A DNA stretch of 64,000 nt from NCBI GenBank assembly GCA_016215455.1, contig JACRJP010000004.1:91787-155786 (forward strand), written 5' to 3'. The DNA comes from Candidatus Tayloriibacteriota bacterium. GTDB lineage: Bacteria; Patescibacteriota; Minisyncoccia; Phycocordibacterales; PALSA-1337. Shown here piece by piece: positions 768 to 57,320 of the stretch; the stretch's first letter is position 1; every line of letters starts with the position of its first letter. Both the position numbers and the translations under genes were made by a program. Under the pieces are notes generated by a model that saw only the letters and a list, made by a program, of their open reading frames with translations, had not been told where the DNA came from and did no database searches.

Positions 768-2456
768 TTATTTCACACTCGGTAACTCAACATAGAATTG
801 AGAACCCTTTCCTTCTCCTTCTGATTCTGCCCAAACACGACCTTTGTGAGCGGTAACAATTTCTTTTGCAACGAAGAGACCAAGACCAGTACCATGAATA
901 TTTGTCTTATTCGCATTATATGCTCGAGTAAATTTCTGAAAGAGTGATGCGATTGTTTTCTCTGACATTCCAATACCGGTATCTTTGACTGAGAAAAGTA
1001 ATATATTCCCTTTTATCGCATCATGCTTCTTCTCAAGAGAGACGGTAACTGAACCAGTCGGAGTGTACTTAACCGAGTTATCGATGAGGTTAGCAAATAC
1101 TTGTTTCAACTTATCAGGATCAGCATTTACTATAAATTCATCTTCAGTACTTACATTAAACTTTAAGGTAATACCGGCTTTTTTAGTATTTGGTTCAAGT
1201 TCAGCAATGACATCACTTACCATCGCTCGAATATCATGCGGAGCAAAATCATACTTCATCGTACCAAGTTCAATACGAGAAATATTGAGATACCCTTCAA
1301 CTACATTTGCGAGAGTTTTAGTTGATTCAAAGATACGAGAAAGTGGCTCACGAGCAACTGCTGAGATCTCACCGTAGTCACCGTCGAGAATGAGTGAAGC
1401 GTATCCCCGCATTGCCGCCAAAGGACTCTTCAATTGATGTGTCGCAAACGATACGAATTCTGATTTTTGTTTATCGAGTTCGAGGAGGTGGTTGTTGGCT
1501 TTTTTGAGATCGCTTGCAAGTTTTTCAATACGCTCACGCTGTTGTACTTCCGCCAAAACAGATCTTATTAAAAAGGCACCTAAAATAATGACCAATATAA
1601 CTGTAGCAGAAAGAATTACATTAAATACAGAACTATCTTCGATAAAAAATAGAGAAAAAACCAGAAGTGCTAATATAAAAACGAGAAATTCAGTTGCAAA
1701 TATTTTAGGATTAACAAACAGCTTAAATCGAACGATAGAATAGGCTAATACAAGTAGAAATACTAGCATTCCTATTGGTCCCCAGAGATTAAACTCATAA
1801 ATCTTAGTCAGCTCTCCCGCAAAATTCGACAAAAAGAATCCAAACAGAAATAGAGTAGCTCCTATAGTAAGTATCAAACCTTCTTTTTTAATATTCTTAC
1901 TTCGAATCATTTGGAACTTTCTTAATCCAATAATAGCAGTGAAAGTAACCAACACAGATTCAAGTACATATATTAAATTCCACAAAATACCGGTATTACC
2001 CTGACATTCGGTTATATCATACTCAAGAATATTAACTGATGTAGGAAGAGCTACAGCTAATAGACCAAGCCCAATGAGAACTGACCAGATCAAAGGATAT
2101 GGCAATTTCTGTCTTTCATATGCAATGACATAAATAAATAATAATGTAAATACAAAAATAGCTATTTCAAATAAAGCCGTTAACTGCCAAGCAAACATCA
2201 AAATAGAATGATAGGAAGCAACCCATTGTACAAGAATATTAAGAATCCAAAGTGAAAAAGAAAAAGCAATTCCCACAAAAAGTCTACTTTTTAGACTGTT
2301 ATCCTTTATCAAAATATAAATCCCGAGAACAACTGAAAGAATCAATATCGGTATATAAGAATAAAACAAAAGACTTGGAGCCGTTGAGAAATCAAAAATC
2401 CAAAAATGAGGATTTTCAGAACCACATATCTGTAAACCTGATTCAAAAAATTTCAT
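768..2456 (-). CDS. sensor histidine kinase, multi-TM N-terminus
   Basis: About 8 N-terminal TM helices. HisKA region ELDKQKSEFVSFATHQLKSPL and HATPase_c region DTGIGM...GTGLGLFVAKEI. No response regulator adjacent. Confidence 0.85.
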   Translation of the reverse strand: MKFFESGLQICGSENPHFWIFDFSTAPSLLFYSYIPILILSVVLGIYILIKDNSLKSRLFVGIAFSFSLWILNILVQWVASYHSILMFAWQLTALFEIAIFVFTLLFIYVIAYERQKLPYPLIWSVLIGLGLLAVALPTSVNILEYDITECQGNTGILWNLIYVLESVLVTFTAIIGLRKFQMIRSKNIKKEGLILTIGATLFLFGFFLSNFAGELTKIYEFNLWGPIGMLVFLLVLAYSIVRFKLFVNPKIFATEFLVFILALLVFSLFFIEDSSVFNVILSATVILVIILGAFLIRSVLAEVQQRERIEKLASDLKKANNHLLELDKQKSEFVSFATHQLKSPLAAMRGYASLILDGDYGEISAVAREPLSRIFESTKTLANVVEGYLNISRIELGTMKYDFAPHDIRAMVSDVIAELEPNTKKAGITLKFNVSTEDEFIVNADPDKLKQVFANLIDNSVKYTPTGSVTVSLEKKHDAIKGNILLFSVKDTGIGMSEKTIASLFQKFTRAYNANKTNIHGTGLGLFVAKEIVTAHKGRVWAESEGEGKGSQFYVELPSVK

Positions 2457-2485
2457 ACTCTTATATTATATCCTATATTTACAAT

Positions 2486-3409
2486 TTACCCATTGATCAA
2501 GAAACTTCCTACGATAATAACAACAACAGCAATACCTTTGTTAACCAAAGCTCTCGGCGAAACATCTTCTTTTAGAATTTTAGGGAAAGCATATGTCAAA
2601 ATTATTCCAATAATAAATACGAAAAGTGGCTGATAAGCACTGACCACAAGTACAAGTCCAACTTGAACTATCAAGAAAGCATAAGCTGTACAAGCATTAC
2701 CCACCAAAACAAAGACTTCACCAAGAAAATTCAACGAAAGTATCGGAAATGAATTGAATCTGAAAAGATTTAAGAAATCTCTTCTTAAGGATCCGATAAA
2801 CACAAAGAGAAAAACGCCAGTAAACAAAATTCCAATATGCTCCCATAGTAATCCCAACCAAAAATCATTTTCCCCTATGGCCCCAATTTTAAATAAAATA
2901 GCATGAAATATAAAACAGATACTGGAACCAGACATCAATATTAAAGGTCTCCAATTTATTTGAATCCTATTCGAGAAATTAATATCTCTTTTCATACTTA
3001 TGATCATGGCGCCAAAAAGAATCACAATTACCCCTACAGATTGGGTCACCGTGATTGTTTCTTTAAAAATAAAATATCCGAATATAAGTGCTATTACAGG
3101 AGATAGTTGAAACAACGGGACAATTTTTGATGCTTCTTCTTTTTGTAAAGCTAACAAATAAAGCAACATACCCACTGCACTCAATATACCGCCCAATAAC
3201 AAAGCAGCACCATCAAGTAGATCTACCAAAATAAACTGCGGTCTTAGATAAATCAATATAGGTATAATAACTATCGAAAACAAACAAGAAAATATAATAA
3301 GAGCACCAACGCCTCCACCCCTTAAGTGTCGACTCAAAATATATTTATCGATATGATTTACAAAACTCCATAGTAGAGGACCGCACAAGGCTAGAATAAA
3401 CCAGAGCAT
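2486..3409 (-). CDS. EamA/DMT-family transporter (10-TM membrane protein)
   Basis: Two repeated 5-TM halves and overall hydrophobicity typical of the drug/metabolite transporter superfamily. Confidence 0.55.
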   Translation of the reverse strand: MLWFILALCGPLLWSFVNHIDKYILSRHLRGGGVGALIIFSCLFSIVIIPILIYLRPQFILVDLLDGAALLLGGILSAVGMLLYLLALQKEEASKIVPLFQLSPVIALIFGYFIFKETITVTQSVGVIVILFGAMIISMKRDINFSNRIQINWRPLILMSGSSICFIFHAILFKIGAIGENDFWLGLLWEHIGILFTGVFLFVFIGSLRRDFLNLFRFNSFPILSLNFLGEVFVLVGNACTAYAFLIVQVGLVLVVSAYQPLFVFIIGIILTYAFPKILKEDVSPRALVNKGIAVVVIIVGSFLING

Positions 3410-3588
3410 ATTAAAAAATTAATTATCTTCAGAAAGAGACTCTACTACCGTAAAATTACCAAGGATAACTGAATCATAAAAAGTAACCCCGATACTCAAG
3501 ATAACTAACAAAACTATAGAAAAAGAAAGTATTTTTGTTGCTTTATCCATAAAGGATTTTATGATAAAATCTTAGTAACAATTATACC

Positions 3589-4893
3589 ATGAGAATCCTG
3601 TTTATCTCAAATGACCTGATTGCCGGACACCTAGCTCAACTACTAAGAAATGAAGGGCATGATGTCCTCCTTTATATATCAGAAAAGAAGCGTCGAAATA
3701 ATTTTAAAAACTTAGTATCAAAAACCAATAACTGGAAAAAATCATTATCATGGGTAGGAAAAGAAGGTCTTATCATATTCGATGATATAGGGTTTGGAGA
3801 GGAACAAGATACTTTAAGAGCTCAAGGATACCGAGTATTTGGGGGTAGTAAACTAGGAGATAAACTTGAGATAGACCGCGCATATGCTCAAGATATCTTT
3901 GAAAAATCAGGTATTCAAAAAATACCGACCGTTAACTTTGACACAATCGACGCGGCGATTAATTACGCAAAATTAAATAAAAATGCTTGGGTTATTAAAC
4001 AAAATGGAAGTTCTAGTAAATCCCTTAATTTCGTAGGTCACTTCCCTGACAGCAGAGACATAATTGATGTACTTGAACGATATAAAATCTTAGGTTTAGG
4101 AAAAAAAGAAATTATTACTCTTCAAAAACGTGTGTATGGGATCGAAATTGCCATCACCCGATATTTTAATGGAACACATTGGGTCGGACCTTCTCTTATC
4201 AATATAGAACACAAACGATTTTTCCCTGGAGATATTGGTCCGACGACAAGCGAAATGGGTACTCTAGGTTGGTATGATTATGATGAAAATAATAAACTCC
4301 ACCAAGCAACACTTAAAAAATTAGAATCTCATCTCAAAGAAATAAATTATCGCGGGTGTATCGATATTAATTGCATAGTAGACGAAGATAAAGTATATCC
4401 TCTCGAGGTAACAGCTCGTATCGGGTCTCCTATCATTCATCTCCAATCTGAATTAAACATAACTCCATGGAGTGATTTAATTAGTGCAATAGCCGATGGA
4501 AAAGATTTTGATGTAAAAGTAAAAGATGGTTTTGGTATTGTTGTTGTAGTCGCTCTTCCCCCATTTCCTTACAGTAAATATATCAAGGAACAATCATCTA
4601 TTGGTTCTAGAGTATATTTTGAAGAATTTTCTGAGGATGATTTTAAACATATACATTTTGAGGAAATCGCTTGGAATAAAAAAGAAAAAGTGCACTACAT
4701 ATCTGATAACCGAGGCTATGTACTATACGTAACTGGACAAAGTACGACTGTACCAGAAGTACAAGAGAAGACCTATGATCTAATCAAAAGAATCCATATA
4801 CCGAAAATGTTCTACAGAAATGACATCGGGCTACGTTTTAATAACGAACAAAAAGCTTTATTACAAAAATGGGGTTACCTAAAGATAATTTAA
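3589..4893 (+). CDS. PurD-like ATP-grasp ligase (phosphoribosylamine-glycine ligase family, divergent)
   Basis: Collinear with PurD: ATP-grasp region GYRVFGGSKLGDKLEIDRAYAQDIF...AWVIKQNG, FPGDIGPTTSEMGTLGWY, C-terminal RNDIG. The N-terminal GGREHA motif is absent. Confidence 0.5.
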   Translation: MRILFISNDLIAGHLAQLLRNEGHDVLLYISEKKRRNNFKNLVSKTNNWKKSLSWVGKEGLIIFDDIGFGEEQDTLRAQGYRVFGGSKLGDKLEIDRAYAQDIFEKSGIQKIPTVNFDTIDAAINYAKLNKNAWVIKQNGSSSKSLNFVGHFPDSRDIIDVLERYKILGLGKKEIITLQKRVYGIEIAITRYFNGTHWVGPSLINIEHKRFFPGDIGPTTSEMGTLGWYDYDENNKLHQATLKKLESHLKEINYRGCIDINCIVDEDKVYPLEVTARIGSPIIHLQSELNITPWSDLISAIADGKDFDVKVKDGFGIVVVVALPPFPYSKYIKEQSSIGSRVYFEEFSEDDFKHIHFEEIAWNKKEKVHYISDNRGYVLYVTGQSTTVPEVQEKTYDLIKRIHIPKMFYRNDIGLRFNNEQKALLQKWGYLKII

Positions 4894-9438: not shown

Positions 9439-10161
9439 TTAAATTAAAATTCCAATTTTCTTTAAAATCCCTTGTTTAACAATATTTGTGAATTTGGGTA
9501 GGCTTATTTGTGTGTAAAAACTTTCCCATCTTCTTTCTCCCCCTTTCTTATTTATAGAATATCCAGCAAATACATCAAAAAGTCCGTATTGGTTGTCTGA
9601 AAATGCGAATGGTGTTGTGGGTCCAAATTCATGTAAAACATAATTACGTATGTTATATAGGTGTTGTGCTACTACATCTATATATTTATCTATATTTTTC
9701 AAATTTCTATCTAGAGTTTGGTAGGATGGACCATAATCAGTATACCGACTCTCCTTAAACAATTCATGATATACCCTTTGATATCCACCTCCCGCTTCAT
9801 CTCTAATTTTTAGATTATCTAACAAATACAATTTATCAATTTTCTCTAATCGTCTCAGGAAAGATTTGAAATCGTCTATCAAATTATTGTTCTCTTCAAC
9901 TGCATCAATTAAAATAAACAAAAGAACGGGACGGAGTCTGTTTTCATCCTTGGCAATCTGAGTATCTAGTGATTGATAAAACGCAATTGAAAACAGAAAC
10001 CGTGTTGCATAATCTTCATTAAGCCCATTTAATGTACTAACAAATACTTCTCTATCAGAAAAGCCTACATCCTTAAAAAACTCTAGACAAGTACTTATAT
10101 ACCTCTCCTTTATATCAGATTCCATATTCTTGAGAATTGTATTTCTTAGATCTGTCACCAT
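9439..10161 (-). CDS. hypothetical protein (AT-rich, next to tRNA-Glu)
   Basis: 240-aa K/N/D-rich ORF; no recognisable domain. Confidence 0.45.
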   Translation of the reverse strand: MVTDLRNTILKNMESDIKERYISTCLEFFKDVGFSDREVFVSTLNGLNEDYATRFLFSIAFYQSLDTQIAKDENRLRPVLLFILIDAVEENNNLIDDFKSFLRRLEKIDKLYLLDNLKIRDEAGGGYQRVYHELFKESRYTDYGPSYQTLDRNLKNIDKYIDVVAQHLYNIRNYVLHEFGPTTPFAFSDNQYGLFDVFAGYSINKKGGERRWESFYTQISLPKFTNIVKQGILKKIGILI

Positions 10162-10213
10162 GTTCTGTACTATTATTCATAGGTATTACTATCTGCCACC
10201 TCCAGCAAATCTG

Positions 10214-10285
10214 TGACCCTACAGGGAATCGAACCCTGCTTTAAGCCTTGAGAAGGCCTTGTCCTAGCCGATAGACGATAGGGCC
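10214..10285 (-). tRNA. tRNA-Glu (anticodon CTC)
   Basis: Reverse complement folds as a cloverleaf: acceptor GGCCCTA/TAGGGTC, T-loop TTCGATT, anticodon loop TTCTCAA. CCA is not encoded. Confidence 0.7.
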
Positions 10286-26476: not shown

Positions 26477-28171
26477 TTACCTCTTCACATCAGCAATACC
26501 TCGACAGTCATACACCGTTGCAGATACTGAACGATCTATCTCTTGATATACCACTTTACAAGAATCTAAATATCGTCGATAGACACTCGCAGGGTCTATT
26601 CTCGGTACATTTATTTCTAGATAATGTTCTTTATACGTATTGAGAGTGGTAATCTTCTCATTAATATCAAAAGCAGGATCAGTATAGAGACGCTTACGGT
26701 ACTTCCCTATTTCCTGAATCTCATTTCCTCCATTGTCGTTATACACCGTGACGTATTGTATGCTTGGATCATTTTTAATAAACTCAGTGACTGCTGGTAA
26801 AAGACCAGACGCAGAACCATATATATTTCCAAACATGTATTCTTCAATAAACACAAGGTTGTATACCAAACTTAGAGGGATAAGTACGAGGAGCATTTTT
26901 GCACGAAGATGTGACTTAAAAAATGCAATAACAACAGCACTAAGAGAAATGACCCACGACACCGCTAGAAAAAGAAACGACATATAGAATCCCAAAGGAC
27001 CAGATCCACCTGAGAATGGATAGAGAAAATTCCATTTGAATGACAAAACTCTCGAGATCCATGCAGCTTTTGGATGTAGTGCTGGAACGGAGTGAGAAAA
27101 GAACATAAGAGCACCTACGACAATAGCAAGAATACTCCCCACCACCAAAAAGGTTCGCGTATGTCTATACGAATCACTCTTCCACATAGTAACTACTGCA
27201 ATTGCAGAAGTGACACAAAGTGGAATGATTGCAAATTGTAAGTATCGATCAAGAGCACCGATTGAAAAATCAAAAAGAATTAGATAGAAGATACAACCAA
27301 AGATAAGGTAGAACAAAAATGGCATGACCTCATGACGTCGTTCTTTCGACAAACACACCAGTGACAGACAAAGAAAAGGAGAAAGATACAAGATTACTTT
27401 AACAAACTGAATAGCTGTCTGCATCCAATTCCTATCAGCACGAATGAAATGTTCCCAATATGCTACGGCGGTTGATAAATTGAAAAATGAGAAAAGACTC
27501 TGTGCGAGTATCAAACAGATAATTAAAATAGCCACTCCTCCTAATCCATACGCTCCATATTTCACAATATCACGTCGAGTGATGTGTGTTCGTTTACTCC
27601 ATATATAGTCTGCAATGATAGCGGCAATAGCAAGGACAAAACTTACCTTAATAAAGAAACCGAGGAGACATGCAAGAAGAAGTAGACCCAACCACATCAA
27701 TCTCTTGCGACCAACTGAAGCCTGCACCTTATAATACGCAATCAAAGCACTCAAAAAAAAGAACGGCATGATCTGTCCATCAGTATCAACCATAAGTGAT
27801 GCAAGCACCGAGAAAAACGAAAGGGTGAAGAATACACTTCCCACTGTGGCTATCGTCCTTCCAAAACGCATACGAAGAAGATAGTACAGGAGGAGCACAT
27901 TCACCACGCCGAATGAAAGTGGTACAAAACGAAAATCAACATCATACCCAACAACAGCCCCTGCAACACGATACACAAATTGTGATAATGGCGGGTGTGG
28001 AATTTCCGTATCACTCACAATAGCTGGATTTACAATTTTCGGCCATTTATATTCATCTTGATGAAGAGGTAGGCTCGTGCCTGGCAAACGAATAACTATA
28101 AACACTACAACAAGTAGCACAAGAACTACTTTTTCATGATTTCGGAACCATTGCGTTATTGTTGATATCAT
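26477..28171 (-). CDS. polytopic membrane protein, probable ArnT/PMT-like (GT-C) glycosyltransferase
   Basis: About 12 TM helices with a large C-terminal soluble domain. Co-operonic with a GT2 and a methyltransferase. Confidence 0.4.
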   Translation of the reverse strand: MISTITQWFRNHEKVVLVLLVVVFIVIRLPGTSLPLHQDEYKWPKIVNPAIVSDTEIPHPPLSQFVYRVAGAVVGYDVDFRFVPLSFGVVNVLLLYYLLRMRFGRTIATVGSVFFTLSFFSVLASLMVDTDGQIMPFFFLSALIAYYKVQASVGRKRLMWLGLLLLACLLGFFIKVSFVLAIAAIIADYIWSKRTHITRRDIVKYGAYGLGGVAILIICLILAQSLFSFFNLSTAVAYWEHFIRADRNWMQTAIQFVKVILYLSPFLCLSLVCLSKERRHEVMPFLFYLIFGCIFYLILFDFSIGALDRYLQFAIIPLCVTSAIAVVTMWKSDSYRHTRTFLVVGSILAIVVGALMFFSHSVPALHPKAAWISRVLSFKWNFLYPFSGGSGPLGFYMSFLFLAVSWVISLSAVVIAFFKSHLRAKMLLVLIPLSLVYNLVFIEEYMFGNIYGSASGLLPAVTEFIKNDPSIQYVTVYNDNGGNEIQEIGKYRKRLYTDPAFDINEKITTLNTYKEHYLEINVPRIDPASVYRRYLDSCKVVYQEIDRSVSATVYDCRGIADVKR

Positions 28172-39705: not shown

Positions 39706-39768
39706 CCATCTTGTACCGCTTCACTTTTTACTAAAATTTGTTATGATAGCGCTGTGCTTGAATACATT

Positions 39769-39844
39769 CCGCGGTAGCTCAGTTGGTAGAGCAATCCCCT
39801 GTTAAGGGATGGGTCCTAGGTTCGAGCCCTAGCCGCGGAGCCAA
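39769..39844 (+). tRNA. tRNA-Asn (anticodon GTT), CCA encoded
   Basis: TCCGCGG acceptor, GCTC/GAGC D-stem, anticodon loop CTGTTAA, T-loop TTCGAGC, 3' GCCA. Confidence 0.9.
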
Positions 39845-42555: not shown

Positions 42556-44082
42556 TTAATTAGATTTATTGTACTTAGAATTATTAAGGACTTTCCAGAT
42601 CTCAACCATAGCTAAAGTATCCAAATGGCAATAATCCTTAAGTGCCTGTATTTTCATATCTCTTTCCTCTTTGGAATATTCCCCTGAAACAATTCGATTC
42701 CATGTATCTGAAGCTGTACCACCTTCTTGGATATGCATATTTTTATAAGACAAATGTGGTACTAATGCTGGTAGAACATATTTAATTGAAGCGCTTCCCT
42801 TAAATTTAGGATGATCATACATTGTGGTCTTTCCGAAAAACGGAATAATCAAATCTACCACTCGATCATTAACCTCCTCCATGAAAGCTTTATATTCTGG
42901 TAAACCTTCCCCAAGCTGTTCATTGATACTTTTTTCAAACCTCTGACTCCACACGATCACACTACCTATTTTAGGGAGATGTTTTTGCAATGCTTCAGCA
43001 AAATATTTATCGGGACAACCCTGTTCTGTATAGATAAAATCACAATGTGTTAATTCATCGCCATATGAGTTAATGACATGGAGTGAAAATTGAAATGGAA
43101 TCTGTTGATATGGTTTGTGTCCGCTATATTTAGGTATTGCAGATGGGTATGTTTCGTAATCAAGGAAAGCCAAGGGGTATTTCATTGTTTCTAAAAACTC
43201 TGAAATACCAGCACTATCGATATATTCTTTATCCGATTGCGCTGTGTCTACCTGTCTTCGCTGATTATCTGATAATTCAAAGTCGCTAGGCACATCGTGA
43301 ATACTTAGAATATTATTATCTACAAGCTCTGTGAGTTTCTTCTTAGTTATTCTAGCTATTGCATGGACCGGATATTCAGGCAGGTCGGGATTAGAATATT
43401 CTGAAGTGGTGCAATGAGAATTCCATCCTTTAAGAATGCAGTCACAGTGGCCAGCTGGCTCTTTGTCACTTACAAGTAGCTCATACACACCTTCCATCTT
43501 TTGTTTTACTTCCTCAAGTTTTTCATTCGCCTGATTAGTAACATCCTCGATTATAAAAAGTCCCTTGAGATTAATATCTCCAATTCGAACATACTCCTTG
43601 TTGAGCCGAATAAGATTGAGTGTTCCTATTTCAATACCGAGATCATTTAAAATGTTCTTCTGAAAGGCGATGTCGATTAAGTAATCTTCTGTTTTACGAC
43701 CACCGCCTTCCTCAGAAGATGTTGATGATTTAACCTCATACAAATCGTAGAGGTTTGTGGCACTATTCCATACAAAAATATCTGAAGCTGTTATAAACTT
43801 TTCAGTAGAAAATACCGGCTGATAAATGACAGCTGTTTTGTCTGTCATAAGCTTTTTAGTTTGCTCTGTGTCATCTCGAGACTCGACAAGTACCCCATTA
43901 GGAAAGAGACCTCTAGCTAGCTCGTCAATTTGGTTACCCGTATCAATGATATTCAACTCAAAAGAAGAAAGTGGATACTTCCTATAAATATCTGGTTTAT
44001 GAATCTTGAGCCATGCATTCTTAGCGCAATCGAGGCATGTTAGGAAATTAGTTTTTGAGAGGAGGGTCATAGGAATTACCAA
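42556..44082 (-). CDS. DUF2779-family protein (predicted Cas4-like PD-(D/E)xK nuclease N-terminal half + RNase H-like exonuclease C-terminal half)
   Basis: C-terminal motifs LAFLDYETYPSAIP and YQQIPFQFSLH. N-terminal Cys cluster C..C ... GHCDCILKGWNSHC. Last gene of the RM-linked operon. Confidence 0.6.
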   Translation of the reverse strand: MVIPMTLLSKTNFLTCLDCAKNAWLKIHKPDIYRKYPLSSFELNIIDTGNQIDELARGLFPNGVLVESRDDTEQTKKLMTDKTAVIYQPVFSTEKFITASDIFVWNSATNLYDLYEVKSSTSSEEGGGRKTEDYLIDIAFQKNILNDLGIEIGTLNLIRLNKEYVRIGDINLKGLFIIEDVTNQANEKLEEVKQKMEGVYELLVSDKEPAGHCDCILKGWNSHCTTSEYSNPDLPEYPVHAIARITKKKLTELVDNNILSIHDVPSDFELSDNQRRQVDTAQSDKEYIDSAGISEFLETMKYPLAFLDYETYPSAIPKYSGHKPYQQIPFQFSLHVINSYGDELTHCDFIYTEQGCPDKYFAEALQKHLPKIGSVIVWSQRFEKSINEQLGEGLPEYKAFMEEVNDRVVDLIIPFFGKTTMYDHPKFKGSASIKYVLPALVPHLSYKNMHIQEGGTASDTWNRIVSGEYSKEERDMKIQALKDYCHLDTLAMVEIWKVLNNSKYNKSN

Positions 44083-44396
44083 TTTCTTGGAATAACCGGA
44101 GGTTCTTTCGGATTCACAAGTCTAGTAATTTCTCTTCCATCAAATGATTCTTTTAAGACCTCAACGCTAGATATATTGCTTAGGTATGTTGAAACAACAT
44201 GCGCCCCGTGTGGAACATGAATATCTGCATATCCCAAAAGAAAGTCTTCTTCGTGGTAATGATTCTTCTTCTTTTTTGGAAAAATATCATATGGGGCAAT
44301 ATCGCGAGTTACAAATTCTCCCGTTGTTTCCTTTTGAAAATTAATCCTGATCATTTGTTGAGATTGGATGGCTGAGATTATAATTTGTTTGTGCAT
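44076..44396 (-). CDS. hypothetical protein (106 aa) within the defense operon
   Basis: Overlaps the downstream gene by 7 nt and lies 3 nt from the upstream gene; no recognisable domain. Confidence 0.4.
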   Translation of the reverse strand: MHKQIIISAIQSQQMIRINFQKETTGEFVTRDIAPYDIFPKKKKNHYHEEDFLLGYADIHVPHGAHVVSTYLSNISSVEVLKESFDGREITRLVNPKEPPVIPRNW

Positions 44397-44399
44397 AAA

Positions 44400-45371
44400 T
44401 TATTTTTTTAAGTATTTCTTATAAGCTTCAATTATACTCTCAGCATAAGTGTGTTTATCGGATATTTTCATAGGAAATATATTACTAAAAGTACTCCAAT
44501 CGAATGAAACTTCTTTATTGACCTTAATAGCTTTCATAAAATTATTGAAGTTTTTACGATTATACCCCTGAATATCTCTTACAACTTTAAGTACGTCTTT
44601 GTGGTGATATTTATATTTTGCTAATGCCTCTGTGATTTCTGGTATTCTAACACTTCTTCCCTCATCTGATAGATTAACACCCTGACTCAATGAAATTTTA
44701 TCGTTGGATTGATTATTAATCCCAACAACCATATCAGAATCCTTTATTCTTTTTACATTTTCCAATAAAACCTTAACATTAACTAAAACGCCTTTATTCT
44801 CTTTTAATTGGACTTGCTTTGAATGTACCTCAATCACTTTTTTCATATAACTTTTAACCTCTGACGAAGCATTTTTTAATGAAGAAGTATTTTCAATAAA
44901 ATCAAAATCGGTATATGGTATCTCCGTTGCAACAGGTAAGATATACCAACTTTTATCTTTAATAAGGCTCTTACTAAAATATTTCTGGATAAAATCTTTA
45001 AAGAGGATAATATTTGATTGAATGAGCATATAATCTACTAAATCAAGTCCTTTGTGATAGTGAACGATTTTACATCTTTCTTTATATAGTAATTTTGTAC
45101 TTTGATACCAGTCATCACTATATCTATTACCCAGATTACTCTTGACACATTCAAGACATTCGTCAAAAGGTTTGCTTTCGTCTTTTTTTCTATTATAAAT
45201 CTTTGCCCATTTTTTATTTATAATTAATGCCTTCAAAGCATTTTCCCAAGAATTGACAATCAGAATAACTACGGATTCTGTTCTGTATTTTATTAAAGGC
45301 TTATTGTAGAGTTCAATTGCAAGTGTAATCGATTCTATAGATTTTGATAACAAATTTTCTGAAATAGTCAT
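44400..45371 (-). CDS. hypothetical protein with HEPN-like Rx4H motif
   Basis: 323 aa, very K/N/I-rich, with KERCKIVHYH (R-x4-H). 4-nt overlap with the RM gene stop. Confidence 0.45.
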   Translation of the reverse strand: MTISENLLSKSIESITLAIELYNKPLIKYRTESVVILIVNSWENALKALIINKKWAKIYNRKKDESKPFDECLECVKSNLGNRYSDDWYQSTKLLYKERCKIVHYHKGLDLVDYMLIQSNIILFKDFIQKYFSKSLIKDKSWYILPVATEIPYTDFDFIENTSSLKNASSEVKSYMKKVIEVHSKQVQLKENKGVLVNVKVLLENVKRIKDSDMVVGINNQSNDKISLSQGVNLSDEGRSVRIPEITEALAKYKYHHKDVLKVVRDIQGYNRKNFNNFMKAIKVNKEVSFDWSTFSNIFPMKISDKHTYAESIIEAYKKYLKK

Positions 45372-48300
45372 AAAATATTATCTATTTCTTTCATGGTTTT
45401 TTCAGTTTCCACAAGAGCAACAATCATCTTCTGATAATGTTCTAGATCTTCACTTGAAAGAAGTCTGTCACGTCTATCTTTAAGCCATTTTTGAGCAGGC
45501 TGATATCCGCCAATATAGAAATTCCAAGCAATTTTTGGAACGCCACCAAAATATTGCTTTTCATTTATATAAACCTTACCATCTTTATATTTCGGATATT
45601 TTGCTTCAACAGTATCGCTTCCTGCTTCGGGAAATGTCGTGAGGAGGTTTTTGAGTTTTGGTGATTCCAAAAGGTGAAACTCGCGCAATTCCCTACCCAA
45701 AATAACAAGTGCTTTAAATGAGGCTACGTCCTTCGGGTACGGCACTCGAGGAAAATCAATTTTAAGAAATTCTTTGTATTTTTCTCGATAACTTGGTGAG
45801 TGTAGAACTGCGTAAATATAGTCGAGGATATCTTCAGGGATGATTTTTCCAACAGTTTTTTCTATTTCTTCAATAATTTCTTTATTTAGATTTGGAACTT
45901 TTGACCCATCTTCAGCATAAAGATAAAGTGGGTAAATTTGTTCTGCACCCAGCATGCCAGGTCTTGACCACGATCTTCTATCAATGATGTATTTGGTAAT
46001 AAAACAAGGAGCAGATTCTTCTTGAACAAAGCCTCGTTTTGCAATAAATCCTAGGTTATCTTTAAGCATGTGTCTCATTACTTCAGACCTTGGGCGAGAA
46101 AAAACGCCCTCGCTTTTTAATGAGTATAGTGTATGTCTAACATCGAAAGGTCGATAGAGTATTTCTGAGGAATCAGCAACAATATTTTTAATATCATTCC
46201 TAACAGCGGTCACCTGTTTCTTTTCTACATTATTTCTTTGAGTTATTTCTTCATCTGTTTTTGTTTGAAAGGATTCACGCAACTCATTAATTTCTCTCGT
46301 TGAGAACTTAATCAAAAGATCATCTTTTGCTGAAGTAGCTCCTGAAGAGTGTATGGGAAATAAATTTGAAACAGAAAATCCCTTATTATAATTTCCTTCG
46401 CCTGAAAAATCTTTAGGTGTAAAAAAGTAGTTAGGATGAACACACTTAAGAAAATTCCATTTGAAGTTCTCTAGACTGCCTTTGTTAAGTGACTCAAACT
46501 TATCTTCTCGCTTACCATACAGATCTTTATGGTACACCTCCCCCAACCCTTTCTTCTTTCCTTCATTCTTGACAAAGATATCTATCGAAACTCCCTGCAT
46601 GATATTAAACACATTTTCATCCCTACCACCATCAGGAGCTTTTTCTTTTTTCTTTGAATTTCCATGTAAATTAACAATATAGATTGAATCAAAAGTCTCT
46701 AGTAGATGTTTTCTCATCTGCCGGTGGGTAACACCGTCGATGAAGGAGTTGTTTGTGATCATCGCTACAATACCGCTTCCGTTCTTTTCAATCAGACTCT
46801 CAGATAATCGAATAAATTTTATATAGTCATCAGAAAGTTGTTGTATATTTTTTTCATTCAAATCCTTTTTATACTCTTTAATCAAATCCTGTATCCATTC
46901 TCCCTTATTCTGAGAACTGACGCTATACGGCGGATTCCCCATTACCACCATGATCGGTAACTCATTCTTTACCTTATTCGCCTGATTAGATTCCTCTGTG
47001 ATAGCCTTTCCGAGCCCGATGTCGAAAAGTGTTTTTTCTTCAATTTCAGCTTTTTCTAGAGAGTTTGTCAGATATACACCAAGACGAGTATTTTCTATTT
47101 TTGCACCAGTCTCAGCAATCGTCGAGGAAAGCTTGAGATGTGCAATCGTATACGATGCCATCATCAACTCGAAACCATGCATGCGTAGCAGGAGATCTGC
47201 ATTCACGTACGAAGACCAACGACCTTCCTGTCCCTCGAAAGATTTCTTAATGTGAAGTATAACTTCATTGAGGAATGTACCTGTACCTGTAGCTGGGTCG
47301 AGAATCTGAACCCTATGAATCGGCACTTTATGTCGCTTACCTTGGATCTCTTTGAGAATATCTATTTTTGACGCATCAGCTAGACCTTGTGGTAGATCAA
47401 ACTCTTTTTTCAAAATGTCATCTACTGTTCGAACAATAAATCGGACCACTGGTAGAGGTGTATAGAACACGCCCATTTTCTTACGTTCAACTGAATCATA
47501 TTCTTGAAGGAAGTCTTCATAGAAGTGAATGATGGGGTCACGACTGCTGTCCTTATCAACTTTGTAGTAATTATGAACAATGGCTTGCACATCAGCGTGA
47601 TTAAACTCCTCACAGAGTTCATTCACAATATATTCGATACGTGGATCAAATGAAGATCCGGCTATGTGGTCAAAGAAGTGACGTAGAAATGGATTTGAGG
47701 CAGGAACAAGGTCTCGTGCTTCTTGGCGTGAGAAATTGTCTGTTGTTTTATCATAGTACCTTGCTACAAAGAGACCGTAGACAATTGTCTGAGCGTACAT
47801 GTCAGCAAACTTTGCATGATCAAGATCAGCAAGGAGAAGTTTCTTGATAACCTCATATACACCGAGCAAGTTTTCATTCTTAGGATTCTTTTCATCTTCA
47901 AGAAACTTCTTTACGTTATCTCGAATACGACGAGCCTTACCAGCCATAACTTTTGAGAGCACAGTACCGGATTTGATCGGCTCTTTAGATTCTTTTATGA
48001 AATCTCCAATTGTATCGGCTAAAAGTTGAAACGGACCCTCAAAAGGTTCCACACTGTCTTTGTGTAGCTTTCCAACAATGATTGGATCACTGTAGCGAAT
48101 CCCATTTCTGAAAAAGCGAAAATCAAGACCATTGGTGAGTATAATGTTCGAATAGCCGTAGTAGCGAGTCATCTGCTCACTTTTCTCTATCTCATCAAGC
48201 GAGACATTAATATCTTTTGCCTCTGCATAAGCAATAACAGTCTTTCCTTTGAGAAACACGAAGTCAGGAGCACCATGCTCGCTACGTTTAGGCTCATTGA

Positions 48301-48424
48301 TTACATTCAATCCCGTTGTCTGTTCAAAAAGCTCCTTGAGAGCGGGACGGTAAGAGTGTTCACGTGCATGTCCGCTACTGTAGGTCTCTATTACTTTTTG
48401 AATGAATGTTGCAACTGGAGTCAT
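45368..48424 (-). CDS. Type IIG restriction-modification enzyme (fused PD-ExK endonuclease + gamma-class N6-adenine DNA methyltransferase + C-terminal TRD)
   Basis: N-terminal nuclease motif APDFVF...IAYAEAK. MTase motif I ILDPATGTGTFL and motif IV NPPYS. ATG at 48424 preferred over the GTG-initiated extension to 48520. Confidence 0.8.
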   Translation of the reverse strand: MTPVATFIQKVIETYSSGHAREHSYRPALKELFEQTTGLNVINEPKRSEHGAPDFVFLKGKTVIAYAEAKDINVSLDEIEKSEQMTRYYGYSNIILTNGLDFRFFRNGIRYSDPIIVGKLHKDSVEPFEGPFQLLADTIGDFIKESKEPIKSGTVLSKVMAGKARRIRDNVKKFLEDEKNPKNENLLGVYEVIKKLLLADLDHAKFADMYAQTIVYGLFVARYYDKTTDNFSRQEARDLVPASNPFLRHFFDHIAGSSFDPRIEYIVNELCEEFNHADVQAIVHNYYKVDKDSSRDPIIHFYEDFLQEYDSVERKKMGVFYTPLPVVRFIVRTVDDILKKEFDLPQGLADASKIDILKEIQGKRHKVPIHRVQILDPATGTGTFLNEVILHIKKSFEGQEGRWSSYVNADLLLRMHGFELMMASYTIAHLKLSSTIAETGAKIENTRLGVYLTNSLEKAEIEEKTLFDIGLGKAITEESNQANKVKNELPIMVVMGNPPYSVSSQNKGEWIQDLIKEYKKDLNEKNIQQLSDDYIKFIRLSESLIEKNGSGIVAMITNNSFIDGVTHRQMRKHLLETFDSIYIVNLHGNSKKKEKAPDGGRDENVFNIMQGVSIDIFVKNEGKKKGLGEVYHKDLYGKREDKFESLNKGSLENFKWNFLKCVHPNYFFTPKDFSGEGNYNKGFSVSNLFPIHSSGATSAKDDLLIKFSTREINELRESFQTKTDEEITQRNNVEKKQVTAVRNDIKNIVADSSEILYRPFDVRHTLYSLKSEGVFSRPRSEVMRHMLKDNLGFIAKRGFVQEESAPCFITKYIIDRRSWSRPGMLGAEQIYPLYLYAEDGSKVPNLNKEIIEEIEKTVGKIIPEDILDYIYAVLHSPSYREKYKEFLKIDFPRVPYPKDVASFKALVILGRELREFHLLESPKLKNLLTTFPEAGSDTVEAKYPKYKDGKVYINEKQYFGGVPKIAWNFYIGGYQPAQKWLKDRRDRLLSSEDLEHYQKMIVALVETEKTMKEIDNIL

Positions 48425-48715
48425 ATTACACAATACTTTACCATTTTTGTGGCTAAAAATAAAGATTTTACAATGCAGACACACCCCAATTCTGTTACTA
48501 TTACAAATATGACTTTCCACACAAAGGAGTCCGAAACTTATTGAGTGATCTTAAAAAATCTCTTTTACGGAAGATGGAAGAGATGACATAACAACCAAGG
48601 GTGAGATGAAGCACTGGCACGTTTTCCATGTAATAGCTCGTAAATACTAGCACCACTGTAGGTTACATTCTTTGCTTCAATTTCATGTGATAAAATATAC
48701 GTAACCACTTTTCCC

Positions 48716-55979: not shown

Positions 55980-56339
55980 ATGTACGAAGGACACACCACA
56001 CCAGAGAACGTCGCTCTAGCAGAACGTTTAATGGATGACTATCATTCAATGGAACTCCCGGCGGAGCCGATTCCTTGGAAAGAAGCGAGTGAATTTCAAC
56101 ATCGTTGTCATCTATGTAGCCATTTCGCTTCTAGCACGGACCGAAGACCAGCACACCCAGAGAACGGGAACATCTTTAATCTCACTCATCTCTGCCTTAG
56201 ATGCGGTCGCCGATGGTGGCAATACAATAGCGTCTATCACCTCTGGCAACACGTGACAGACCCCGTTGAGTGGGATACTCTTCGCAGGCAGCAAATCATG
56301 CTCAATGGAGGTTTTGGTCTTCCCGGAGCAGATCAGTAG
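55980..56339 (+). CDS. hypothetical protein with CxxC...CxxC zinc-ribbon-like motif (G+C-rich)
   Basis: CHLCSHF...CLRCGRRWW. Start reset to the first ATG downstream of the promoter; the track ORF starts at 55917 inside the -35 box. Confidence 0.4.
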   Translation: MYEGHTTPENVALAERLMDDYHSMELPAEPIPWKEASEFQHRCHLCSHFASSTDRRPAHPENGNIFNLTHLCLRCGRRWWQYNSVYHLWQHVTDPVEWDTLRRQQIMLNGGFGLPGADQ

Positions 56340-56495
56340 CTCATTCTGCAACTTGATTTTTTATTATCGACACAAGTTGCCATACTTCTCCCATAAATAC
56401 CACTGATACAAATTACAAATTGGTTTGCATGAATAGTGGGTGTTGTAAATAAAAAGTCTCGAGACAGTGCCCGAGAACACTAGCGAGGAAGTAGC

Positions 56496-57320
56496 TCACT
56501 CCGGCGCAGGAGAACCTCCGTTCTTCTTGCCGATGTCAGACCGTGCCGCCGCAGAAACAATCGCAGCCCGTTCTTTGTTGGTAATCACACCTCCAGAGTT
56601 GAGATAGTTTGCGAGATCCGTCACGCATGACACGTAATCGCCATGATTGGCAACACCGACCGCACACTGGTCGATGAGGTCTTGCACTGTTGCGCCGCCG
56701 GAACCGACGACCACTTGAATCGTCACGCTCGCGAGTCGCACACCACCAGAACCGGCGCCCTTCTCTACCGCATACAGCGTGTAGTCATAGGTAGCGTTCT
56801 GCGTGGGATTAAGCCCGTAGACCGCGAACCCGATGTTCTGCGACTGTTGGACGATGTTGTAGGTATTCGCCAGCACCGTCTGATCTCCGGCTTCGATGCC
56901 GCCACCATTAGGCGTCGCGTCGTTGCCGAAGGAGTTGTCGGTCCAGGTCGTGAGAACGTTGAGTGCGTTGTAATTGACACCCACCGAGGGATCGAGATCG
57001 ACCAGAAGATAGTAGTCGAGCTGGCCGACCGGTCCGTTTCCGGTCCGGATCGAAAACTCGAAATTCCAAGCAGCACGAGTTATGCTCGAAGGAGCAAAGC
57101 CGACTGGCATGTAATACGTATCGTCAACGTGGGTGGTGTCCCCTGTCGTGCGATTCTTAGCGCGCAAAGCGACGGTGACGTCGTTCTGAGTTTCGGCGTT
57201 CCAACCGACATCAGGGTTCCCACCACCGAAAATTGCCGTGATCACGGCATTGAAGTCGATGGCAAAGGCCGCTGAGGTGGAGACGAGTGCTGCAATGAGC
57301 ACTGAGGTGAGACGCTTCAT
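56496..57320 (-). CDS. secreted hypothetical protein (markedly G+C-rich)
   Basis: Signal peptide MKRLTSVLIAALVSTSAAFA. Gly/Thr/Asn-rich mature part; G+C by eye is far above the flanks. Confidence 0.5.
   Translation of the reverse strand: MKRLTSVLIAALVSTSAAFAIDFNAVITAIFGGGNPDVGWNAETQNDVTVALRAKNRTTGDTTHVDDTYYMPVGFAPSSITRAAWNFEFSIRTGNGPVGQLDYYLLVDLDPSVGVNYNALNVLTTWTDNSFGNDATPNGGGIEAGDQTVLANTYNIVQQSQNIGFAVYGLNPTQNATYDYTLYAVEKGAGSGGVRLASVTIQVVVGSGGATVQDLIDQCAVGVANHGDYVSCVTDLANYLNSGGVITNKERAAIVSAAARSDIGKKNGGSPAPE

What the first reader, a model, noticed from the sequence alone, without database searches (positions are those of the whole stretch)
42556..48520. Tightly coupled four-gene defense operon: Type IIG RM enzyme + HEPN-like protein + 106-aa protein + DUF2779 nuclease
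Four minus-strand genes are packed with 4-nt and 7-nt overlaps and a 3-nt gap, i.e. they are translationally coupled. Their codon usage is extremely A+T-rich (K/N/I-rich proteins) compared with the flanks. The first gene is a fused endonuclease-methyltransferase (PD...EAK plus DPATGTGTFL/NPPY). The last is a DUF2779-type protein with a Cas4-like Cys cluster and an exonuclease-like FLDYETY/IPFQFSLH module. RM enzymes normally act alone. A hard-wired RM+HEPN-like+nuclease cassette suggests a composite anti-phage system (RM plus an abortive-infection/nuclease back-up) that I do not recognise as a described type.
Basis: partly seen in the sequence, partly recalled or inferred. Interest (0 to 1): 0.8.

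Follow-up and report, generated by a model that had tools for sequence, protein, structure and literature searches.

The report
RM–HEPN pair stacked on WYL–DUF2779 pair
A candidate-phylum (Taylorbacteria) genome carries a small anti-phage island. A restriction enzyme with an embedded HEPN RNase, which is a known pairing, sits directly in front of a small WYL sensor-like protein and a double nuclease (DUF2779). That second pairing recurs from these bacteria to proteobacterial plasmids and has not been characterised.

Summary
The four minus-strand genes exist as described. They are:
- A, a DrdV/MmeI-like Type IIG restriction-modification enzyme
- B, a DUF3644 HEPN protein (PADLOC candidate PDC-S19) with an invariant Rx4H motif
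- C, a 106-aa stand-alone WYL-fold protein
- D, a DUF2779 protein with a Cas4-like 4-Cys PD-ExK nuclease and a DEDDy exonuclease

They are not a hard-wired four-part system. DNA homology to other contigs breaks exactly at gene boundaries. A-B occurs alone, A-B-C occurs without D, C-D occurs without A-B, and D occurs without A, B or C in 20/20 genome loci. The full array recurs once (L034).

Two pairings are robust:
- **RM + DUF3644.** Seen in 9/9 contexts of close homologs, and already described in the literature.
- **WYL + DUF2779.** C lies 4-7 nt upstream of D in 7 of 11 C contexts, while D diverges to 40% identity. Annotated WYL proteins also flank DUF2779 on 4 of 14 plasmids from other phyla.

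D sits among ever-changing defence genes (Type III RM, Gabija, Shedu, PDC-S06, GmrSD).

Tight spacing is normal in this genome, and only B is compositionally odd.

Verdict: a modular defence-island stack. The RM-HEPN part is known. The WYL-DUF2779 pairing is the interesting, untested lead.

The parts
45368..48424 (-). Gene A: single-chain Type IIG/IIL restriction-modification enzyme (1018 aa from the ATG at 48424; the ORF is open back to the GTG at 48520)
   Evidence: PADLOC REase_MTase_IIG 6.7e-270. Pfam Type_ISP_C 2.8e-72, N6_Mtase, Eco57I and MmeI_Mtase, with no helicase domain. PDB sequence hits are DrdV 7lo5 and the MTase-TRD parts of LlaBIII and LlaGI.
48212..48271 (-). A: N-terminal PD...EAK endonuclease motif (residues about 52-71)
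   Evidence: APDF at residue 52 and EAKD at residue 68. Read from the sequence.
46655..47545 (-). A: gamma-class N6-adenine methyltransferase core (motif I DPATGTGTFL, motif IV NPPY)
   Evidence: Pfam N6_Mtase/Eco57I stretches. Motif positions 376 and 497.
45389..46363 (-). A: C-terminal target-recognition domain (Type_ISP_C)
   Evidence: Pfam PF18135 at residues 720-1044 of the 1050-aa ORF. DNA homology to L021, L034 and L035 is interrupted in roughly 45.9-46.6 kb. I read that interruption as a TRD or specificity swap, which is an inference.
44400..45371 (-). Gene B: DUF3644-type HEPN protein (PADLOC PDC-S19), 323 aa
   Evidence: Pfam DUF3644 87.5 bits (cut-off 27.6). PDC-S19 7.8e-41 over residues 2-320. 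The N-terminal fold matches the HEPN toxins HpeT/SO_3166. Lies in or next to RM genes in 9/9 contexts of close homologs.
45060..45077 (-). B: HEPN catalytic motif R99-C-K-I-V-H104 (Rx4H)
   Evidence: R99, C100 and H104 are invariant in 22 homologs of 45-85% identity. The motif aligns to R-D-N-S-I-H in the divergent L026 DUF3644.
44076..44396 (-). Gene C: stand-alone WYL-fold protein, 106 aa, no HTH
   Evidence: AF2 model with pLDDT 83.6: a helix plus a 5-strand barrel. The top 27 Foldseek PDB hits are all WYL domains, including PafBC, BrxR, CapW, DriD and WYL1. Pfam and PADLOC WYL hits are only marginal, E about 0.004-0.005. The family is tiny: 26 clusters among 1.84 billion representatives, and the hits are stand-alone proteins of 77-124 aa apart from one 1932-aa protein with 11 short matched stretches.
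42556..44070 (-). Gene D: DUF2779 dual nuclease, 504 aa
   Evidence: Pfam DUF2779 4e-36. No PADLOC hit. More than 4000 homologs, the top 120 at 69-92% identity and all of those named by their source from Patescibacteria.
43396..44070 (-). D: N-terminal Cas4-like PD-(D/E)xK nuclease with four Cys
   Evidence: C15, C209, C211, C220, D97, E112, K114 and Q137 are invariant in 23 sequences that go down to 43% identity. The Cas4 relationship of the family comes from PMC13621843 and PMC3985635.
42595..43173 (-). D: C-terminal DEDD(y) 3'-5' exonuclease-like domain (the DUF2779 Pfam region)
   Evidence: D304, E306, D406, Y480 and D484 are invariant. Pfam PF11074 covers residues 306-432. The family is placed in the 3'-5' exonuclease clade in PMC3985635.

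Best explanation
The locus is a modular stack inside a defence island of a Candidatus Taylorbacteria (Patescibacteria) genome. It is made of two separable two-gene modules that are probably co-transcribed.

Module 1 is A plus B. A is a single-chain Type IIG/IIL enzyme that methylates host DNA and cuts unmodified DNA. B is an RM-embedded DUF3644 HEPN protein. It is predicted (inference) to be a latent RNase that acts as a second line of defence when restriction is bypassed or inhibited, by analogy with PrrC-EcoprrI and the validated DUF3644 proteins HEC-08 and Ishtar.

Module 2 is C plus D. C is a WYL-only protein. It is predicted (inference, from the ssDNA-binding WYL domains of DriD and CapW and from WYL1-Cas13d) to sense a nucleic-acid signal. 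Because it has no HTH, it would act by protein contact rather than as a transcription factor. D is a Cas4-like plus DEDDy double nuclease, predicted to chew DNA ends with both polarities.

Shown here: domain identities, intact catalytic residues, the recurrence of each pair, and the separability of the pairs.

Inferred: the enzymatic activities, the sensing role of C, and any hand-over between restriction-made DNA ends and D.
For: - **Domain identities.**
- **A-B as a unit.** L035/36 carry only A (71%) and B (71%), inserted between yebC/ruvC and ruvB. DNA homology to the window runs from 48406 to 44400, that is from the A start to the B stop. DUF3644 lies inside or next to RM genes in 9/9 contexts: IIG in four, Type I in four, and a split MTase/ResIII arrangement in one.
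- **C-D as a unit.** C lies 4-7 nt upstream of DUF2779 in 7 of 11 distinct C contexts (window, L027, L028, L029, L030/31, L032/33, L034). Across these, D ranges from 91% down to 40% identity and the gene upstream of C changes each time. L027 homology spans 44417..42557, which is exactly C plus D.
- **WYL-DUF2779 pairing outside the CPR.** On plasmids of other phyla an annotated WYL protein is the immediate neighbour of DUF2779 in 4 of 14 loci inspected: A. butzleri, Rhodoferax, Diaphorobacter and Sphingobium. The Sphingobium case is a 172-aa HTH-less WYL+WCX protein upstream of D, in the same order as here. A 97-aa WYL protein lies three genes upstream in A. cryaerophilus.
- **Stacking.** The whole array recurs in L034, with B 85%, C 89% and D 83% identical and a non-homologous downstream flank.
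Against: - D lacks any C-like ORF in 20/20 genome loci at 65-83% identity. C is therefore dispensable for D.
- C also occurs without D: inside Type I RM operons next to a DUF3644 (L026) or an unknown 293-aa protein (L022), and next to a 186-aa protein (L025). C may partner with more than one effector.
- The WYL assignment of C rests on a 12-sequence AF2 model and sub-threshold HMM hits. hhalign to two plasmid WYL proteins found nothing.
- No activity, expression or phenotype data exist.
Confidence: 0.6

Rival explanations
1. One reading: A, B, C and D form one integrated four-component anti-phage system (RM plus Abi plus nuclease back-up) that works only as a set.
For: - The same order A-B-C-D recurs in L034 at about 79% DNA identity with different flanks.
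- A parallel architecture exists in L037: HsdR-HsdM-HsdS-DUF3644-DUF4268-DUF2779.
- No internal terminator or strong promoter was predicted.
Against: - Every sub-combination exists on its own: A-B, A-B-C, C-D and D.
- Homology breakpoints sit at gene boundaries.
- D is found without A, B or C in 20/20 loci.
- Junctions of 10 nt or less are found in 42% of same-strand pairs in this genome.
Confidence: 0.12
2. D, with or without C, is a DNA-repair or DNA-damage-response nuclease of reduced genomes rather than a defence gene. It lies next to defence genes because the site is an insertion hot spot. C would then be a damage (ssDNA) sensor like DriD or PafBC.
For: - D is far more conserved (65-92% across Patescibacteria lineages) than the few shared housekeeping genes seen (46-62%). 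This is unlike fast-evolving defence effectors.
- A DUF2779 homolog is quasi-essential in JCVI-syn3.0 (PMC13621843).
- RmuC is the upstream neighbour in L003 and L016.
- PADLOC has no model for D.
- WYL regulators such as DriD and PafBC control damage regulons (PDB hits).
Against: - D is flanked on both sides by defence-type genes in many loci. Upstream: Type III RM, HerA-like, Ppl-like, PDC-S06, Gabija, GmrSD. Downstream: Shedu SduA_C, NERD, a trypsin-like protease, an FtsK-like ATPase.
- No conserved housekeeping synteny was seen.
- D homologs sit on 30 plasmids among IetA-like, MzaB-like, NACHT-HEPN and PDC-S26 genes.
Confidence: 0.18
3. C belongs functionally with the HEPN protein B, as a WYL accessory of a HEPN RNase like WYL1 with Cas13d. 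D would then be merely the next, independent gene.
For: - C is adjacent to a DUF3644 protein in four contexts and in both orders: B-C in the window, L034 and L021, and C-DUF3644 between hsdM and hsdS in L026.
- A-B-C is kept without D in L021 at a uniform 77-78% identity.
Against: - A-B exists without C (L035/36).
- Five of nine DUF3644 contexts have no C.
- C is adjacent to D more often (7 of 11 contexts), and with non-HEPN genes upstream, such as Trypsin_2 and unknowns.
Confidence: 0.1

Closest known systems
PDC-S19 / DUF3644 HEPN proteins embedded in R-M operons (EC042_2821 family of Anantharaman et al. 2013, PMC3710099; PADLOC candidates of Payne et al. 2024, bioRxiv 10.1101/2024.01.29.577857)
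   Same: B matches PDC-S19 models over its full length and Pfam DUF3644 above threshold. It has the Rx4H motif and sits immediately after an RM gene. Close homologs sit inside Type I or IIG RM operons in 9/9 contexts.
   Different: The host RM here is a single-chain Type IIG enzyme, whereas the candidates were derived from Type I RM, BREX and DISARM. PDC-S19 is defined as a single-gene candidate with no WYL or DUF2779 partner. No member close to B has been tested.
HEC-08 and Ishtar (experimentally validated DUF3644-HEPN defence proteins)
   Same: An N-terminal DUF3644 HEPN domain whose Rx4-6H histidine is required for HEC-08 defence. Ishtar has a HEPN domain plus a C-terminal domain of unknown function.
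   Different: B gave no PADLOC HEC-08 hit and has no zinc-ribbon C-terminus. The C-terminal half of B is poorly modelled, so its relation to the Ishtar C-domain is unknown.
PrrC-EcoprrI and RloC (RM-linked latent anticodon nucleases)
   Same: An RNase with a HEPN-type active site encoded inside an RM operon. This is the paradigm of an RNase held latent by the RM enzyme and released when phage blocks restriction. It is the best model for how B may work.
   Different: PrrC and RloC carry an ABC-ATPase domain and B does not. No physical link between A and B has been shown.
WYL-domain regulators and accessories: BrxR, CapW, DriD, PafBC, and WYL1 of Cas13d
   Same: The C model superposes on their WYL domains. 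They sit next to defence or damage-response genes. DriD and CapW bind ssDNA. WYL1 modulates a HEPN RNase.
   Different: C is WYL-only: 106 aa with no HTH, RHH or WCX domain. It scores below the Pfam WYL threshold and belongs to a very small family.
DUF2779 / solo-Cas4-like nucleases (MMSYN1_0389 of JCVI-syn3.0; RNase H-like family F.17)
   Same: The same two-domain architecture of a Cas4-like PD-ExK nuclease and a DEDD exonuclease, with catalytic residues conserved.
   Different: D keeps all four Cas4 cysteines, whereas MMSYN1_0389 keeps two. D lies in a defence island and is preceded by a WYL gene. No cas genes or CRISPR array occur in the window.
DrdV / MmeI-type Type IIL/IIG enzymes
   Same: A single chain with an N-terminal PD-ExK nuclease, a gamma N6A methyltransferase and a C-terminal TRD. 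The best PDB sequence match is DrdV (7lo5).
   Different: The TRD is of the Type_ISP_C kind shared with LlaGI and LlaBIII, but without their helicase. Specificity is unknown.

Membership tests
Type IIG/IIL restriction-modification enzyme | Endonuclease, methyltransferase and target-recognition domains in one polypeptide | tested here: met
   PD...EAK motif at residues 52-70, N6_Mtase/Eco57I in the middle, Type_ISP_C at the C-terminus. PADLOC REase_MTase_IIG 897 bits.
Type IIG/IIL restriction-modification enzyme | Gamma-class N6-adenine MTase motifs I (xPxxGxGxF) and IV (NPPY) | tested here: met
   DPATGTGTFL at 376 and NPPY at 497.
Type IIG/IIL restriction-modification enzyme | No helicase/translocase domain (this separates it from Type ISP) | tested here: met
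   No helicase family among the Pfam hits. The LlaGI and LlaBIII matches cover only their MTase-TRD parts.
Type IIG/IIL restriction-modification enzyme | Site-specific methylation and cleavage at a fixed distance | not testable with these tools
   Needs biochemistry or methylome data.
DUF3644 HEPN / PADLOC PDC-S19 | Match to the family profile above threshold | tested here: met
   Pfam PF12358 87.5 bits against a cut-off of 27.6. PDC-S19 7.8e-41 over residues 2-320 of 323.
DUF3644 HEPN / PADLOC PDC-S19 | Conserved HEPN Rx4-6H motif | tested here: met
   R99 and H104 are invariant in 22 homologs.
DUF3644 HEPN / PADLOC PDC-S19 | Four-helix HEPN fold | tested here: inconclusive
   The model has a mean pLDDT of only 63. 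The N-terminal part hits HEPN toxins with TM (target) 0.6-0.75, but E is only about 0.03.
DUF3644 HEPN / PADLOC PDC-S19 | Embedded in or adjacent to RM/BREX/DISARM genes | tested here: met
   9/9 contexts of homologs at 46-85% identity, plus L026. Distant plasmid homologs at 26-31% identity can be solo.
DUF3644 HEPN / PADLOC PDC-S19 | RNase activity or an anti-phage/anti-plasmid phenotype | not testable with these tools
   Shown only for HEC-08 and Ishtar in the literature.
HEC-08 | C-terminal zinc-finger/zinc-ribbon domains after the DUF3644 domain | tested here: not met
   No HEC-08 model among the PADLOC hits of B at E <= 0.1. No zinc-ribbon Pfam hit.
Ishtar | C-terminal beta/alpha domain of the Ishtar type | tested here: inconclusive
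   Residues 137-241 of the B model have pLDDT below 50. No Ishtar sequence was available for comparison.
HEPN-MNT toxin-antitoxin | Adjacent minimal nucleotidyltransferase antitoxin | tested here: not met
   The neighbours are an RM enzyme and a WYL-fold protein. No NTase hit was found.
WYL domain proteins | Match to the WYL profile above threshold | tested here: not met
   Pfam WYL 17.5 bits against a cut-off of 21.8. PADLOC WYL E about 0.005.
WYL domain proteins | Sm/SH3-like five-strand barrel of the WYL type | tested here: met
   Model pLDDT 83.6. The top 27 Foldseek PDB hits are all WYL domains, E down to 3e-4, TMq about 0.6.
WYL domain proteins | N-terminal HTH/RHH DNA-binding domain (transcription-factor type: BrxR, CapW, DriD, PafBC) | tested here: not met
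   C is 106 aa, consisting of one helix, the barrel and a short tail.
WYL domain proteins | Binding of ssDNA, RNA or a nucleotide ligand | not testable with these tools
   Needs binding assays.
DUF2779 (Cas4-like + DEDD exonuclease) | Match to PF11074 above threshold | tested here: met
   124.5 bits against a cut-off of 23.3.
DUF2779 (Cas4-like + DEDD exonuclease) | PD-(D/E)xK triad and Cas4-type cysteine cluster | tested here: met
   D97, E112, K114 and C15, C209, C211, C220 are invariant in 23 sequences.
DUF2779 (Cas4-like + DEDD exonuclease) | DEDD(h/y) acidic residues | tested here: met
   D304, E306, D406, Y480 and D484 are invariant. Their assignment to the Exo motifs is by position only.
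CRISPR-associated Cas4 | Linked to cas1/cas2 and a CRISPR array | tested here: not met
   No array in the 64-kb window. No cas gene appeared in any D neighbourhood that was read.
Known defence systems in PADLOC v2 | C or D matches a component model | tested here: not met
   D has 0 families. C has only marginal WYL hits.

The most novel reading that the evidence does not exclude
A WYL-only (or WYL-containing) sensor plus the DUF2779 double nuclease may form an undescribed defence module that is widespread from Patescibacteria to proteobacterial and campylobacterial plasmids. It would be docked behind changing first-line systems, here a Type IIG RM with an embedded HEPN. The WYL protein would detect ssDNA or DNA ends produced by the upstream system and license DUF2779 to destroy the invader's DNA from both ends. 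In reduced genomes this would stand in for RecBCD/AddAB-type post-restriction degradation.
Probability: 0.25. Interest if true: 0.7.

Novelty: new variant of a known kind. Interest (0 to 1): 0.48.

Why it matters
The RM-HEPN half only adds a Type IIG example from the candidate phyla radiation to a known theme.

The other half is more useful. DUF2779 is a large, uncharacterised family with more than 4000 homologs found here, and one member is quasi-essential in the minimal cell JCVI-syn3.0. This analysis shows three things about it:
- It is embedded among rapidly changing defence genes.
- It stays unusually conserved itself.
- It is repeatedly paired with WYL proteins across phyla.

This gives a concrete, testable hypothesis for its function and for what an HTH-less WYL protein does. 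It also points to a marker gene for finding defence islands in Patescibacteria, whose immune repertoire is poorly known.

Tried and rejected
- **Mobile-element borders.** No direct repeats matching tRNA-Asn (39768..39843) or other att-like repeats flank the cassette, and no integrase is present.
- **Phage origin.** D and C have no relatives in IMG/VR. D has none in the GenBank phage collection.
- **Metagenome scan for C.** It returned only 2 loci, so the C survey rests on 11 contexts.
- **Unknown partners of C in L022 (293 aa) and L025 (186 aa).** No Pfam or PADLOC hit and no hhalign relation to the B family. The genes upstream of C in L027, L028, L029 and L032 are also unannotatable.
- **hhalign of the C profile against two plasmid WYL proteins.** No significant match.
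- **PDB sequence search with D.** Nothing found.
- **Compositional 'foreignness' of the whole cassette.** Rejected, because only B deviates.
- **Translational coupling as evidence of function.** Rejected as weak, because such spacing is common in this genome.
- **Rfam and CRISPR checks of the window.** Only two tRNAs and no arrays.


Full report
**Observation**

ORF listing confirms four consecutive minus-strand genes at 42556..48520. A/B overlap by ATGA, and B/C are 3 nt apart.

Two start codons need correcting:
- A probably begins at the ATG at 48424 (1018 aa).
- D probably begins at the ATG at 44070 (504 aa). Homologs are 497-500 aa and align from residue 1-4. This makes C/D a 5-nt gap.

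- Only B is compositionally deviant (GC 0.283, GC3 0.24). A, C and D have GC3 of 0.29-0.33, against 0.325 +/- 0.09 for other genes.
- 42% of same-strand neighbour pairs in this compact genome are 10 nt or less apart.

C is 100% identical to a hypothetical protein of a Candidatus Taylorbacteria MAG.

**What the four proteins are**

*A.* A is a single-chain Type IIG/IIL RM enzyme. PADLOC gives REase_MTase_IIG at 897 bits. Pfam gives N6_Mtase, Eco57I, MmeI_Mtase and Type_ISP_C, with no helicase. The best PDB relatives are DrdV and the MTase-TRD parts of LlaBIII and LlaGI.

*B.* B is a DUF3644 protein. This family was recognised as HEPN in 2013 (PMC3710099).
- It matches PADLOC PDC-S19 over its full length.
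- R99-x4-H104 is invariant in 22 homologs.
- The N-terminal part of a mediocre model hits HEPN toxins.

*C.* C gives only sub-threshold WYL HMM hits. A good AF2 model (pLDDT 83.6) is a helix plus a five-strand barrel, and its top 27 PDB matches are all WYL domains: PafBC, BrxR, CapW, DriD and WYL1. It has no DNA-binding domain. Its family is tiny: 26 clusters in 1.84 billion representatives, and the hits are stand-alone proteins of 77-124 aa apart from one 1932-aa protein with 11 short matched stretches.

*D.* D is a DUF2779 protein. Four Cas4-type cysteines, a D-ExK triad and DEDDy residues are invariant down to 43% identity. This agrees with published fold assignments (PMC3985635, PMC13621843). 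PADLOC has no model for it.

**Is the cassette conserved?**

I surveyed the neighbourhoods of each accessory gene.

*D.* 20 genome loci carry D at 65-83% identity, from Taylor-, Falkow-, Yonath-, Morani-, Nomura- and Saccharibacteria among others. None contains A, B or C, by tblastn or by a C HMM.

*C.* There are 11 distinct contexts:
- A-B-C-D (window, L034)
- A-B-C followed by a convergent EF-G gene (L021)
- hsdR-hsdM-C-DUF3644-hsdS (L026)
- hsdR-hsdM-C-293aa-hsdS (L022)
- helicase/S24-C-186aa (L025)
- five X-C-D arrangements with different X (L027-L033)

*B.* There are nine contexts, all in or next to RM genes:
- IIG in four
- Type I in four, including an Ignavibacteriaceae genome
- one split MTase/ResIII locus

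Three of the nine also have DUF2779 within two genes (window, L034, L037).

*DNA homology.* DNA-level homology to the window ends exactly at gene borders:

| Locus | Window span | Genes covered |
|---|---|---|
| L035 | 48406..44400 | A-B |
| L021 | 48464..44067 | A-B-C |
| L027 | 44417..42557 | C-D |
| L001 | 44058..42584 | D |

The array is therefore a mosaic of modules, not an indivisible unit. It has nevertheless persisted as a whole in at least two lineages (window and L034).

**Two robust pairings**

(i) *RM + DUF3644.* This was already described by Anantharaman et al. in 2013, and Payne et al. in 2024 derived PDC-S19 by 'guilt-by-embedding'.

(ii) *WYL + DUF2779.* In seven contexts C lies 4-7 nt upstream of D, while D diverges from 91% to 40% identity and the gene upstream of C changes.

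There is independent support from other phyla. D homologs occur on 30 plasmids. In 14 plasmid loci inspected:
- An annotated WYL protein is the immediate neighbour in four: A. butzleri, Rhodoferax, Diaphorobacter and Sphingobium.
- The Sphingobium case is an HTH-less 172-aa WYL+WCX protein upstream of D, as here.
- A 97-aa WYL protein lies three genes upstream in a fifth locus.

**D lives in defence islands**

In 10 of the 15 D loci with upstream sequence, the co-directional upstream genes are RM or defence genes:
- Type III Mod/Res
- HerA-like
- Ppl-like
- PDC-S06
- PD-T7-5-like plus PDC-S50-like
- Gabija GajA/GajB
- EcoRI-family MTase plus GmrSD/HNH
- a helicase-REase
- RmuC

Downstream genes include Shedu SduA_C, NERD, DEDDh and PolB-type exonucleases, a trypsin-like protease and an FtsK-like ATPase.

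Plasmid neighbours include IetA-like AAA+ proteins, an MzaB-like protein, a NACHT protein with a DUF4145 HEPN domain, and PDC-S26.

Yet D itself is unusually conserved, at 77-78% identity where shared housekeeping genes are 46-62%. A homolog is also quasi-essential in JCVI-syn3.0. A repair role therefore cannot be excluded.

**Mechanism (inference)**

- A restricts unmodified DNA.
- B is a latent HEPN RNase coupled to the RM enzyme, following the PrrC-EcoprrI paradigm. HEC-08 needs its Rx4-6H histidine, and Ishtar causes plasmid loss.
- C senses a nucleic-acid signal, as the WYL domains of DriD and CapW bind ssDNA and WYL1 modulates Cas13d. Lacking an HTH, it would act on a neighbouring nuclease by contact.
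- D degrades DNA ends with 5'-3' (Cas4-like) and 3'-5' (DEDDy) activities.

Whether restriction products feed D is speculation.

**Verdict**

The 'hard-wired novel composite system' reading is only partly supported. The RM-HEPN part is a new member of a known kind. The WYL-DUF2779 pairing, and DUF2779 as a conserved resident of variable defence islands, are the new leads. They are worth a proper survey and a simple genetic test.

Noticed in passing
window 42556..44070 and loci L001-L020: The DUF2779 protein is 65-92% identical across many Patescibacteria lineages: the top 120 of more than 4000 homologs are at least 69% identical. The few housekeeping genes shared between the window and the same loci are only 46-62% identical. 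This points to either very strong constraint or frequent horizontal transfer.
   Followed up: partly
L006-L010 (upstream of D); also plasmid locus L059 6029..8430: An EcoRI-family adenine methyltransferase and a GmrSD_N/DUF262(+HNH) protein recur together. Variable defence genes (Ppl-like, PDC-S06, PD-T7-5-like, Gabija) are slotted between this pair and DUF2779. The same MTase+DUF262 pair sits next to a DUF3644 gene on a Dietzia plasmid.
   Followed up: partly
window 56001..57320: A GC-rich patch (0.52-0.57, against about 0.40 for the window) holds two overlapping ORFs on opposite strands: 56496..57320 (-) and 56643..57275 (+). The minus-strand ORF has no Pfam hit, the plus-strand ORF was not scanned, and there is no Rfam hit in the patch.
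   Followed up: partly
window 44400..45371 (protein B residues 72, 75, 100): C72 and C75 (a CxxC) and C100, which lies inside the Rx4H motif (RCKIxH), are invariant in all 22 B homologs. This may be a metal site next to the HEPN active site.
   Followed up: no
L037 8001..11523: A parallel architecture in a Type I context: hsdR-hsdM-hsdS-DUF3644-DUF4268-DUF2779. DUF4268 occupies the position that the WYL protein has in the window.
   Followed up: no
L021 and a sister contig; L025 2567..3409 and 9468..10277: Bro-N domain genes, typical of phages and mobile elements, lie next to the A-B-C cassette or near C in other contigs. This hints at how these cassettes may move.
   Followed up: no
window 45900..46600: DNA homology between the window's A gene and its relatives in L021, L034 and L035 is interrupted within this stretch, at or just before the target-recognition domain. 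This would fit a change of specificity by domain replacement.
   Followed up: no
window 27001..28000 and 2001..4000: Unusually high AT skew (0.31 and 0.22-0.25). The stretches overlap, respectively, a PMT_2 glycosyltransferase gene (26477..28171) and a region that includes an EamA transporter gene (2486..3409).
   Followed up: no
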